A stretch of DNA of 64,000 bases from Gekko japonicus. Its lineage: Eukaryota. The stretch spans positions 434,795 to 498,794 of the forward strand of contig NW_015165245.1 in the NCBI RefSeq assembly GCF_001447785.1, given 5' to 3'. Positions 6,001-9,000 of this stretch are shown in pieces. The stretch's first letter is position 1. Each line of letters begins with the position of its first letter. The position numbers are program-made.

Positions 6001-9000
6001 AACAGGTTTGCGAGCCCTGAATCCCGAAAAGAGCAGGAAGAGGCACGAAGGCCTCTAACCGGTCACGGCTGAGAAAGAAATCTGCGTCTCCCCCACAGCG
6101 AACCCCGGAGAGGAATTGCCAGCCCCTCACCTCCACCATGGTGCCAGTCTGCCGTCTCGGCTACCCCCGGCGCAGCCACACGCTCTCGATGGAGCCGCTA
6201 CGACCCAACGCCACAACCAGGTCCGTTACCGACAAGAAGCCACTTCCGGCGCCTCTCCTCCGCCGCATCGGAAGTGACGTTTCCTTTGAAGGGCGCATGA
6301 GTGAGACAAGCTGGCTGGATAAAGGGGGTTGAAAGTAGGCTTCCGTTTTGGGTTGGTGCCTTGAGATTACCGAGGGAACTGGCTAATTGGGCCGCGGTTC
6401 TTAGCACACGACCCTGGGAGTTGCTCCCATTGAATTAAGCGGGGATTTTTGTTGTTATTGTTCAGTCGCACAGTCGAGTCCGACTTTTCGCGACCCCATG
6501 GACCACATCACGCCAGGCCCTCCTGTTTTCCGTCGTGGGAAAAGGGTAAAAGTCGGATCCACATGGATCCTCATGAATTCATATGATTTTTACATTGAAA
6601 CGAAATAAAACCACCATCATATTGTAGGCCATTTGTTAGTCTATAGGGGGCACAACAAAAATCACGCTCCCACGGATTCGTGGCACCACAACAGCGCAAA
6701 AACATGATTGCAAAGGACGGATCCTCATGAATTCATATGATTTCTATGCTGGAATGAAATAGAACCAACATCATAGTGTAGACCGTGTCTTACACTATAG
6801 GAAGCACTAAAAAAATCATGCCCCCACAAATTCGTGGCAAAACAAAACTGCAAAAACATGGTTCTGGAGCATGGATCCTCACAGTTTTTCAACTGGGTCA
6901 CCCGAAACACACCATCAAATCACATAACACATCCACGTCAACAGCTTGCACCATAAAAATCACAGATCCACGGTTTCATGGAGACAGCATTCTGCAAAAA
7001 CATGATTCTGAAGCACGGATCCTCATGGATGCTTGGGGTTTTTGTATCGGAACACCCCAAACATACAATTAAATCCCATGGCGCTGTTGGCAGCTACAAT
7101 GGCCGTGGCGGGGGGCGAAACGTACCTCTGCCTCCCTGGGCCCCGGGGTGGTGGCCTTGGACTCGTAGGGGCAAATTCTACCTCTCGTGTGTGATGCAAT
7201 GTTATGGCCACCGGCACTGTCGGCGGCAGCTGCAATGGCTGCAGCGGTGACGGCAGGGGGGACAAAACTTTCCTCCGCCTCCCTGAGCCCCGGGGTGGTG
7301 GCCTTGGACTCGTAGGGACAAATTCCACCTCTCGCTTGTGATGTCCGAGGTCTGGTGTTGCCAGAGCCATGGCACCGTGATTTCTGTGGTGCAGGCTGTG
7401 ACCAAGGACATGATAAGCGATTTAATGGTATGTTTGGGGTGTCCCAACACAAAAACCCCAAGCATCCATGAGGATCCGTGCTTCAGAATCATGTTTTTAC
7501 AGAATGGTGTCACCACAAAGCCGTGGATCTGTGATTTTTGTGGTGCAAGCTGTGGCCATGGACATGTTATGTGATTTGATGGTGTGTTTCTGGAGACCCA
7601 ATTGATAAACCCTGAAGACCCATGCTTTGGAACCATGTTTTTGCAGTTTTGTGGTGCCACGAATTCATGGGGCCATGATTTTTGGAGTGCTGCCTATAGT
7701 CTAAGACATGGTCTACAGTATGATGTAGGTTTTATTTCATTCCAGCATAGAAATCATATGAATTCATGAGGATTCATCCTTTGGAATCATGTTTTTGTGC
7801 TGCTGTGGTGCCACGAATCTGTGGGTGCGTGATTTTTGTGGTGCCCCTTGTAGACTAACACATGGCCTACAATATGATGGTGGTTTTATTTAGTTTCAGA
7901 GTAAAAATCATATGAACATGAGGATTCATTTAGATCCGACCTTTACCCAGACCCTCCGTCGTGCTCCGGAGTTTGCTTAATTTCACGTTCGTTGCCTCAA
8001 GAACACTGTCTAACCATCTCATCCTTTGCCGTCCCCTTCTTCTTTGACCTTCTATCTTTCCCAGCATCCGGTTCTTCTCCAGTGAGTGCTCCCTTCTCAT
8101 TTGGTGGCCAAAGTAATTGAGCTTCAGCTTCAATATCTGGCCTTCCAGGGAACAGTCAGGGATGATTTCTTTTAGGATTGACTGATTTGATCTCCTTGCA
8201 GTCCAGGGGACTCTCAAGAGTCTTCTCCAGCACCATAATTCAAAAGAATCTATTCTTCAGCGCTCTAATGGCGTTCCTTATGGTCCAACTCTCGCAGCCA
8301 TACAGTACTACTGGGAATACCATGGCTTTGACTATACAGACGTTTGTTGGGAATTACTTCTAAGCAAATACACGGTGCAACCCGAGCAAGTGTAGCTTGT
8401 TCTCTTCCAGGCTGCTGTTTACAGCTTTCAGCTAACAAAACCAGGAATTTTGAAGTTTGTCAGGAAGCATATCCTAGCACTGGAAGACTGAACTAGTGAT
8501 ATTTTAAAATGGGTGTCGCATTGCTGTATAAATTTCAACCACCGAGCCAGATTACTATACCAACTTCGGAACCTCTGCAGATGTTGACGGTGTTAGGGAG
8601 CGCAGTAGATAGGATTAACCTATGGTGTGAAGAGGGCAGCACATGGATTTTCATCCATATGCGCTAGAACGTTCAACATTCATATGGAAAACACATTGTC
8701 TGATGTATGCGACATGGCAGTCATACATATTACAGCCTCCAAATGTGGTTGCCAAACTCTGGGTCGTGTGAATGGAACACCATTATAAAAGCGAGTGTTT
8801 TACTGGAGAATGCAGTCATATTATCATTTTTCCTCAAGGTATTCAGGGCAGCATACCTGGTCCTCCCAGGTTTTAGGGCAACACATATATAGACTGCGAC
8901 ACCTTGCAGTTTAAGACAAACGGCATATGGAGCATATGGTGATATTTCGGCTTGCCCTGCAGTCTTGGAGGAAGAACATGTTCAGGAAAAAATATGAGAA

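What the first reader, a model, noticed from the sequence alone, without database searches (positions are those of the whole stretch)
6538..7954. 1.4-kb modular foldback (Mutator-like) transposon with a 9-bp TSD, nested in BovB next to the PLRG1 promoter
Seen: a perfect 9-bp duplication (TCCGTCGTG at 6529-6537 and 7955-7963) brackets an element that is almost entirely an inverted repeat, with arms of about 540 bp. Each arm is built from tandem modules: GGATCCTCA recurs at 6565, 6719, 6873 and 7017 (spacing 154, 154, 144 bp) and is mirrored in the right arm. The CpG-rich centre holds a separate direct repeat with a 147-bp period (7141, 7288). Removing the element restores a continuous BovB 3' end. 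Established: 9-bp TSDs with long, G-starting, internally repetitive TIRs are typical of Mutator/MULE and Foldback elements, which are little described in amniotes. Inference: this is a recently active, possibly uncatalogued squamate foldback family that is younger than the BovB copy.
Basis: partly seen in the sequence, partly recalled or inferred. Interest (0 to 1): 0.75.

Follow-up and report, generated by a model that had tools for sequence, protein, structure and literature searches.

The report
Old foldback DNA transposon in BovB
A 1.4-kb hairpin-shaped, non-coding "cut-and-paste" transposon sits inside a BovB retrotransposon fragment about 400 bp upstream of the PLRG1 start codon; it is a real insertion, but it is decayed and its transposon superfamily cannot be decided from this one copy.

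Summary
TCCGTCGTG flanks a 1,417-bp element (6538-7954) whose arms are 88% complementary over about 538 bp. The arms are built of 144-154-bp modules. A GC-rich centre carries a 147-bp direct repeat.

A lizard BovB ORF2 protein aligns without gap or loss across the two flanks, so this is a precise insertion.

- **Superfamily not shown.** "Mutator-like" rests on TSD length alone. A 9-bp TSD (8 bp cannot be excluded from one copy) with GG...CC termini fits Merlin equally well (PMC8101967). hAT termini (YARNG) are not met.
- **Not recent.** The arms differ at 62 of 536 sites. The arm facing away from the PLRG1 CpG island has lost 8 CpGs; the other arm has lost none.
- **Copies.** There is no second copy in the window. 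Eight unnamed ORFs from public short contigs carry the same roughly 150-bp module, so the module belongs to a dispersed repeat family.

No transposase, Pfam or Rfam match lies in the element. Dfam/Repbase and the source genome could not be searched, so "uncatalogued" stays untested. Verdict: an ordinary non-autonomous foldback-type DNA transposon, of modest interest.

The parts
6529..6537 (.). Left copy of the target-site duplication TCCGTCGTG
   Evidence: the last G could instead be the first base of the element (8-bp TSD reading)
7955..7963 (.). Right copy of the target-site duplication TCCGTCGTG
6538..7954 (.). The inserted element, 1,417 bp, non-coding, folds as one long hairpin
   Evidence: DNA fold MFE -568.8 kcal/mol; 0 Pfam hits for its 3 ORFs of 100 aa or more; 0 Rfam hits at E<=1; 0 tRNAs
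6538..6564 (+). Left terminal domain (GGAAAAGGGTAAAAGTCGGATC...), outside the module array
   Evidence: pairs with 7928-7954; positions 3-6 differ between the two ends (AAAA against GTCT)
6565..6718 (+). Module L1 (154 bp)
6719..6872 (+). Module L2 (154 bp), about 80% identical to L1
6873..7016 (+). Module L3 (144 bp), second subtype; its 3' half resembles L1/L2
7017..7083 (+). Module L4, truncated (67 of 154 profile positions)
7084..7349 (.). GC-rich unique centre with a 147-bp-period direct repeat (7110-7196 and 7257-7343, 89%)
7350..7477 (-). Module R4, nearly full (130 of 154 positions), longer than its left partner
   Evidence: D4
7478..7621 (-). Module R3
7622..7775 (-). Module R2
7776..7927 (-). 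Module R1
7928..7954 (-). Right terminal domain (reverse complement GGGTCTGGGTAAAGGTCGGATC...)
7955..8353 (-). Host BovB/RTE ORF2 fragment, upstream part (residues 846-977 of the lizard protein P0036)
6465..6537 (-). Host BovB ORF2 fragment, last 22 codons plus the duplicated codons
   Evidence: 6452-6530 is also 90% identical to a second BovB tail at 19192-19114
5750..6537 (.). CpG island (CpG o/e 0.82-0.96) holding the candidate PLRG1 exon 1 (ATGGTGGAG|GTGAGG at 6139-6131, minus strand)
   Evidence: exon 2 begins at residue 4; the exon 1 assignment is inference

Best explanation
This is one copy of a non-autonomous class II (terminal-inverted-repeat, cut-and-paste) DNA transposon with foldback architecture. 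It landed in the last 150 codons of a 5'-truncated BovB ORF2 and duplicated 9 bp (possibly 8) of target.

Each arm is an array of 3.4-3.9 modules of 144-154 bp. Each module carries the conserved block AAAAACATG..(9 nt)..GGATCCTCATG.

Inferred mechanism: these repeated blocks are multiple binding sites for a DDE transposase made by an autonomous relative elsewhere in the genome. That enzyme would pair the two ends, cut at GG.../...CC and integrate with a 9-bp stagger.

The superfamily is unresolved. MULE/Foldback-type and Merlin both fit the TSD and the termini. The copy is old and decayed, not recently active.
For: Shown:
- An exact 9-bp TSD, unique in the window at that spacing.
- Arms 474/536 identical, folding into one hairpin of -568.8 kcal/mol.
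- Precise empty site. P0036 (UniRef, Podarcis muralis, 998 aa, RVT_1 + endonuclease domains) aligns residues 877-976 to the right flank at 81% identity. It aligns residues 977-998 to the left flank from that flank's 3rd residue. Nothing is lost or added except the duplicated codons.
- No coding capacity. Pfam gave 0 hits for the element's 3 ORFs, and 0 transposase domains among all 65 ORFs of 100 aa or more in the window.
- The module block occurs 6 times in the window within 3 mismatches, all inside the element, 3 per arm, with 0 expected from shuffles.
- The module is not private to this locus. An HMMER scan of 1.84 billion representatives with the 163-aa frame through the right arm gave 11 hits at E<=1e-3 and 4 at E<=1e-10. 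Eight of them align on the shared string KNMxxKHGSSWILxVFxLGHPKxTIKSH...CTTKITD. In 3 of those 8 a short motif recurs every 48-51 aa, which equals 144-153 bp.
- Age. K2P between the arms is 0.126. There are 8 left-only CpGs, 6 of them facing TG/CA, and 0 right-only CpGs.

From papers: multiple transposase-binding sites in tandem repeats of long TIRs are described for Galileo and proposed for Tetris (PMC4079207, passages).
Against: - No second copy of the element or of any module is in the 64-kb window.
- The 8 related ORFs are distant (26-39% identity to the query across alignment A2; 36-54% over the matched stretches). They are unnamed, and each comes from a single short contig, so neither the host species nor foldback structure is known for them.
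- Two word-index searches found nothing new.
- The outermost TIR positions 3-6 differ on the two ends (AAAA against GTCT), where transposon ends are usually best conserved.
- The ts:tv ratio between the arms is only 34:28. Part of the arm difference may therefore predate insertion, and the age may be overestimated.
- Transposase binding to the modules is inference only.
Confidence: 0.85

Rival explanations
1. One reading: the element belongs to the Mutator/MULE-Foldback lineage and is mobilised by a MULE DDE transposase.
For: - The TSD is 9 bp under the gap-free alignment of the two ends.
- The TIRs are long, G-starting and internally repetitive.
- Most foldback elements are assigned to Mutator, and Tetris was placed there on 8-10-bp TSDs alone (PMC4079207, passages).
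- Rehavkus has a 9-bp TSD and TIRs up to 400 bp (PMC6446971, Table 1 passage).
Against: - No MULE transposase is in the element or the window.
- Dupeyron et al. could not confirm any vertebrate MULE transposase. They regard the Repbase vertebrate 'MuDR' entries as probably misidentified (PMC6446971, passages).
- A survey of Anolis found no Mutator families (PMC3014272, abstract and passages).
- The TSD length is shared with Merlin.
- Foldback shape evolves independently in different superfamilies (PMC4079207, citing Marzo 2008).
Confidence: 0.35
2. It is a non-autonomous Merlin-superfamily element with lengthened TIRs.
For: - Merlin is defined by 8- or 9-bp TSDs, TIRs of 24-462 bp and a conserved terminal 5'-GG. 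All families described start with GG (PMC8101967, passages). This element starts GG and ends CC.
- Merlin is documented in vertebrates: stickleback, zebrafish, Xenopus and human (PMC4350176, passage), and 90 sequences in 31 chordate species (PMC8101967, passage).
- A snake repeat review lists a RepeatMasker class DNA/Merlin in snakes (PMC8303610, passages).
Against: - The arms of about 538-605 bp exceed the published TIR range.
- No IS1595-type DDE domain is in the window.
- GG is only two bases of evidence.
- Modular tandem arrays in the arms were not described for Merlin TIRs in the passages I read.
Confidence: 0.3
3. It belongs to a superfamily with 8-bp TSDs (hAT, P or another), and the ninth matching base is chance.
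For: - G6537 can be read as part of the element. Both ends then start GGG, and the empty site is unchanged.
- One extra matching base is expected about a quarter of the time on either side.
- hAT is the most abundant and structurally diverse DNA transposon superfamily in the one lizard studied in detail (PMC3014272).
Against: - hAT families carry terminal YARNG motifs such as CAGTG or CAGGG (PMC3014272, section 8 and Table 1 passage). This element has GG(G) at both ends.
- The 8-bp reading needs an indel in the TIR, whereas the 9-bp reading is gap-free.
- P-type ends starting CA are recalled from memory, not tested.
Confidence: 0.12
4. It is not a transposon but a local inverted duplication (fold-back replication error) inside BovB.
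For: It is the only copy in the window.
Against: - There is an exact flanking 9-bp duplication and an exact empty site.
- None of the inserted sequence resembles the surrounding BovB: all 25 of 25 blastn HSPs of the element fall inside it.
- Module relatives exist in unrelated public contigs.
Confidence: 0.03

Closest known systems
Tetris (foldback transposon of Drosophila virilis; PMC4079207)
   Same: - TIRs are built of a terminal domain followed by tandem repeats (about 220 bp there, about 150 bp here).
- The middle domain is non-coding.
- TSDs are 8-10 bp.
- No autonomous copy is known, so the superfamily is inferred from TSD length only.
   Different: - The host is an insect.
- The repeat unit length and sequence differ.
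- Tetris repeats have spawned a satellite; nothing of that kind is seen in this window.
Drosophila FB (Foldback) elements / MULE-NOF group
   Same: Long modular inverted arms, little or no coding sequence, 9-bp TSD (this last point is recalled, not from a call).
   Different: - FB arm repeats are short (tens of bp; recalled).
- Vertebrate MULE transposases are unconfirmed (PMC6446971).
Merlin superfamily MITE-like elements (Feschotte 2004, as summarised in PMC8101967)
   Same: 8-9-bp TSD, terminal 5'-GG, long TIRs possible (to 462 bp), presence in vertebrates.
   Different: - The arms here are longer and made of tandem modules.
- No IS1595-type transposase partner is known for this element.
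Galileo (P superfamily, Drosophila; PMC3688188 seen as search listing and abstract, also cited in PMC4079207)
   Same: Foldback-like long TIRs with tandem repeats that carry extra transposase-binding sites. This is the model for how the modules here may work.
   Different: The 7-bp TSD and the THAP transposase are recalled. The termini are unlike those here.
Ricksha / 'MuDR' non-autonomous repeats of mammals (PMC5753468, PMC6446971)
   Different: They are mammalian families. No sequence comparison was possible.

Membership tests
Class II TIR (cut-and-paste) DNA transposon | Target-site duplication directly flanking the element | tested here: met
   There are 9/9 identical bases at both borders, and this is the only such 9-mer pair at that spacing in the window.
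Class II TIR (cut-and-paste) DNA transposon | Terminal inverted repeats reaching the element's ends | tested here: met
   GG...CC at the very ends. 17 of the first 22 positions match, and 474/536 match overall.
Class II TIR (cut-and-paste) DNA transposon | Precise empty site once the element and one TSD copy are removed | tested here: met
   BovB ORF2 protein P0036 runs from residue 976 to 977 across the two flanks with no gap.
Class II TIR (cut-and-paste) DNA transposon | Multiple dispersed copies with independent TSDs | tested here: inconclusive
   There are 0 further copies in the window. Eight distant module-bearing ORFs occur in unnamed public contigs. No genome was available to search.
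Foldback-type architecture | Element almost wholly made of long inverted arms built from tandem subrepeats, with no transposase gene | tested here: met
   The arms are about 538/605 bp of the 1,417 bp. The modules are 144-154 bp. Pfam gave 0 hits.
Mutator / MULE | TSD of 9 bp (range 8-11) | tested here: inconclusive
   9 bp is the favoured reading, but 8 bp cannot be excluded from one copy. The feature is shared with Merlin.
Mutator / MULE | Autonomous relative encoding a MULE DDE transposase with matching termini | not testable with these tools
   There is no transposase domain in the window and no eukaryote genome or TE library was available. Vertebrate MULE transposases are unconfirmed (PMC6446971).
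Merlin | Terminal 5'-GG | tested here: met
   GG at 6538-6539 and CC at 7953-7954. The criterion is from PMC8101967.
Merlin | TSD of 8 or 9 bp | tested here: met
   The TSD is 9 bp, or 8 bp under the alternative boundary.
Merlin | TIR length 24-462 bp | tested here: inconclusive
   The arms are 538 bp or more, longer than the published range. The sequence-conserved terminal domain outside the modules is only 27 bp.
Merlin | Autonomous relative encoding a DDE_Tnp_IS1595 transposase | not testable with these tools
   None is in the window, and no genome was available to search.
hAT | Terminal motif YARNG | tested here: not met
   The ends read GGAAA / GGGTC. The criterion and examples are from PMC3014272, section 8.
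hAT | 8-bp TSD | tested here: inconclusive
   This is possible only if G6537 belongs to the element.
Rehavkus | 9-bp TSD, TIR 26-400 bp, minisatellite before the 3' TIR, PHD-finger transposase | tested here: inconclusive
   The TSD fits. The repeats lie inside both arms rather than before the 3' TIR. The transposase is untestable. The known hosts are arthropods and annelids (PMC6446971).

The most novel reading that the evidence does not exclude
The element is a genuine member of the MULE/Foldback lineage in a squamate. The roughly 150-bp module family seen in unnamed public contigs would then mark a dispersed, previously uncatalogued amniote foldback family. This would bear on the open question of whether MULEs exist in vertebrates at all (PMC6446971).
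Probability: 0.15. Interest if true: 0.6.

Novelty: new member of a known kind. Interest (0 to 1): 0.3.

Why it matters
Foldback-type DNA transposons are well known in insects. I found none described for squamates: 0 papers held 'foldback', 'transposon' and 'squamate' together. The one paper holding squamate, TSDs, TIRs and '9 bp' together concerns PIF/Harbinger-type elements.

A family with a constant 9-bp TSD and an identifiable autonomous partner would add a superfamily to the squamate list, which for Anolis has six superfamilies and neither Mutator nor Merlin (PMC3014272). It could also test whether MULEs occur in vertebrates (PMC6446971).

Locally, a 1.4-kb perfect-hairpin former with a GC-rich core sits 399 bp upstream of the candidate start codon of an essential splicing gene. 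It could affect promoter-edge methylation, replication stability or hairpin-RNA production. None of these effects was tested.

As it stands, this is one decayed, non-coding copy, an ordinary kind of object.

Tried and rejected
- **Other copies in the window.** blastn with word size 9 gave 25 of 25 HSPs inside the element. nhmmer with a profile of the 8 modules gave 8 of 8 hits inside it.
- **Other copies in public data through translated frames.** The word-index search with the 163-aa frame gave 0 hits. The profile search with A2 gave 2 hits among 1,588 candidates, both already known. The full HMMER scan gave 11 hits. I set one aside as spurious: P0123, a sea-urchin HYR-domain protein with 0 matched stretches. 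I did not examine two others, P0129 and P0131, which are long proteins at E about 4e-4 (P0131 has a different repeat spacing).
- **Prokaryote genome collection.** A scan with the back-translated module motif gave 0 matches, as expected for vertebrate DNA.
- **Known RNA or tRNA origin of the centre.** Rfam gave 0 hits at E<=1. ARAGORN gave 0.
- **Coding capacity.** Pfam gave 0 hits for the element's ORFs.
- **The RT at 9882-10547(-) as part of the same BovB.** Rejected: it is only 20% identical to P0036.
- **Translating 1545-6140(-) in one piece to find PLRG1 exons.** This failed because of stop codons. I listed the open frames instead and searched the single exon.
- **Poorly designed paper search.** One search used too low a term threshold and returned unrelated herpetology papers. 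One search failed on term length and was re-sent.
- **Not checked.** Dfam/Repbase, the source genome, orthologous sites in other species, the closed collections metagenome contigs and viral contigs, and paper supplements. The S1 Appendix of PMC8101967 lists the 31 chordate species with Merlin and may include squamates.
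Full report
**What is there.** Reading 6300-8200 shows TCCGTCGTG at 6529-6537 and again at 7955-7963. The bases just outside differ, so the duplication is at most 9 bp. Across the window only one position has a 9-mer repeated 1,426 bp downstream, and it is this one. 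A fixed-place 9/9 match has a composition-adjusted chance of 5e-6.

Between the two copies lie 1,417 bp. [quoted passage not shown] As single-stranded DNA the element folds into one long hairpin of -568.8 kcal/mol.

Each arm starts with a 27-bp terminal domain followed by modules.
- GGATCCTCA lies at 6565, 6719, 6873 and 7017.
- TRF finds period 154 in both arms.
- Aligning the eight modules shows two subtypes that share their 3' half.
- A profile of the modules shows the arms are unequal. The innermost right module covers 130 of 154 positions (7477 to 7350); its left partner stops near 7083.
- The remaining centre (about 7084-7349) has GC 0.62 and holds a direct repeat of period 147 at 89% identity.

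The one caveat is that the exact mirror motif occurs only once in the right arm; the other three sites are degenerate.

**It is an insertion.** The minus-strand frame to the right of the element found 8,000 relatives. The named ones are RT-domain proteins of Podarcis muralis and Crotalus adamanteus. P0036 (998 aa, RT plus endonuclease domains) aligns residues 877-976 to the right flank at 81% identity. It aligns residues 977-998 to the left flank, starting at that flank's third residue. The first two residues there are the duplicated codons.

The two flanks therefore abut exactly, and the inserted DNA is foreign to BovB. tblastn shows that the host is only a 5'-truncated BovB piece, residues 846-998. 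The RT fragment at 9882-10547 belongs to another retroelement.

The window is not human. It carries BovB with lizard and snake best matches, and the gene order is PLRG1 followed by fibrinogen genes.

**Position relative to PLRG1.** I searched PLRG1 exon by exon and left out any joined, spliced model.
- 2058-2165(-) matches residues 4-38 of PDB 'Pleiotropic regulator 1' (E 4e-16).
- 1290-1544(-) matches residues 38-90 (E 1.5e-14).
- Residues 1-3 must lie upstream. ATGGTGGAG followed by GTGAGG at 6139-6131(-), inside a CpG island spanning about 5750-6537 (CpG o/e 0.82-0.96), fits. This assignment is inference.
- The element's left end is 399 bp from that ATG.

**What kind of element.** It has no coding capacity.
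- None of its three ORFs of 100 aa or more hits Pfam, and none of the window's 65 such ORFs carries a transposase domain.
- Rfam at E<=1 and ARAGORN find nothing.

It is therefore a non-autonomous TIR transposon of foldback build.
- **The TSD may be 8 bp.** G6537 may belong to the element (GGG at both ends with one indel in the TIR). The empty site is the same either way. The gap-free alignment favours 9 bp.
- **Merlin fits as well as Mutator.** Merlin elements have 8- or 9-bp TSDs, TIRs of 24-462 bp and an invariant terminal GG (PMC8101967, passages). This element starts GG and ends CC. Merlin is documented in several vertebrates (PMC4350176, passage; PMC8101967, passage). 'DNA/Merlin' also appears as a RepeatMasker class in snakes (PMC8303610, passages).
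- **MULEs in vertebrates are doubtful.** Dupeyron et al. could confirm no vertebrate MULE transposase and ask whether MULEs are absent from vertebrates (PMC6446971, passages).
- **hAT fails.** hAT is the dominant lizard superfamily but fails on termini: YARNG is required (PMC3014272, section 8) and GG is observed.
- **Foldback shape is not diagnostic.** It arises in different superfamilies (PMC4079207, discussion passage).

I therefore leave the superfamily open, at roughly 0.35 MULE/Foldback lineage, 0.3 Merlin and 0.12 an 8-bp superfamily.

**How it probably works (inferred).** The block AAAAACATG-N9-GGATCCTCATG recurs three times per arm. There are 6 matches within 3 mismatches, none elsewhere in the window, and 0 expected from shuffles. 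It is the part best conserved in distant relatives. By analogy with Galileo and Tetris, where tandem repeats in long TIRs carry extra transposase-binding sites (PMC4079207, passages), these blocks are the likely binding sites for a transposase supplied in trans.

One odd point is that positions 3-6 of the two ends differ (AAAA against GTCT).

**Age.** The arms differ at 62 sites (34 transitions, 28 transversions), giving a K2P distance of 0.126.
- The left arm, next to the CpG island, keeps 14 CpGs. The right arm keeps 6, all shared with the left.
- Of the 8 left-only CpGs, 6 face TG or CA. There is no right-only CpG.
- This one-sided loss is what methylation-driven decay in place would produce.
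- A perfect TSD is still compatible with this divergence: about 1.1 changes are expected in 9 bp, so the chance of none is about 0.3.

'Recently active' is therefore not supported. The low ts:tv ratio warns that some arm differences may predate insertion.

**Other copies.** There are none in the window.

As a substitute I searched protein collections with the 163-aa open frame through the right arm.
- The word-index search found nothing.
- The full HMMER scan of 1.84 billion representatives found 11 hits at E<=1e-3, of which 4 at E<=1e-10; the best were 3e-24 and 4e-22.
- Ten were looked up. Nine are unnamed singletons from Logan or ENA contigs of 0.7-13 kb. One is a sea-urchin protein with no aligned stretch, which I regard as spurious.
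- Eight align on the module's translation. In three of them a short motif recurs every 48-51 residues, matching the 144-154-bp modules.
- A profile search added nothing new.

The module therefore belongs to a diverged, dispersed repeat family. The species, copy number and structure of those relatives are unknown, and I did not try to trace the records.

**Verdict.** This is an old, non-autonomous foldback-type DNA transposon with a 9-bp (or 8-bp) TSD, nested in a BovB fragment at the edge of the PLRG1 CpG island. I file it as a new member of a known kind, with modest interest (0.3). The bolder reading, a true MULE/Foldback family in an amniote, remains possible (about 0.15). It needs the genome-wide TSD table and an autonomous partner.

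Noticed in passing
window 26289-27128: A 107-bp tandem repeat of 7.9 copies with 100% matches and no indels, about 1 kb upstream of the fibrinogen-beta-like exons. It is either a very young array or an assembly artefact. It also produces a ladder of overlapping ORFs.
   Followed up: no
window 38798-38895: A 98-bp near-perfect palindrome with 46-nt arms (91% complementary) and a 6-nt spacer. It is the only other long inverted repeat within 6 kb found in the window.
   Followed up: no
window 19114-19192 (+): A second BovB 3' fragment, 90% identical to 6452-6530. Its similarity to BovB ORF2 begins at residue 977 of P0036, the same residue at which the foldback element sits in the first copy. This is either coincidence or a SINE tail derived from BovB.
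   Followed up: partly
window 11256-14411 (+): An uninterrupted 1,052-aa open frame with an RVT_1 domain (E 2e-29), only 27% identical to the BovB RT. It may be an intact LINE ORF2.
   Followed up: no
window 9882-10547 (-): A reverse-transcriptase fragment (RVT_1, E 1e-13) only 20% identical to BovB P0036. It is therefore a different retroelement and not part of the BovB copy that hosts the insertion.
   Followed up: partly
window 1290-2165 (-), 28099-33135 (+), 41137-47440 (-), 59112-59768 (-): Gene order is PLRG1 (minus strand) followed by three sets of fibrinogen-domain exons: Fib_alpha/Fibrinogen_C on +, then -, then -. This looks like the conserved PLRG1-fibrinogen cluster; the naming of the individual fibrinogen chains is recalled.
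   Followed up: partly
window 6540-6543 versus 7949-7952: The two ends of the element differ at four consecutive positions (AAAA against GTCT in TIR positions 3-6), although the next 16 positions match at 15. This is unusual for transposon termini.
   Followed up: no
window 21452-21495: A run of 44 N, the only one in the window. It was left untouched.
   Followed up: no
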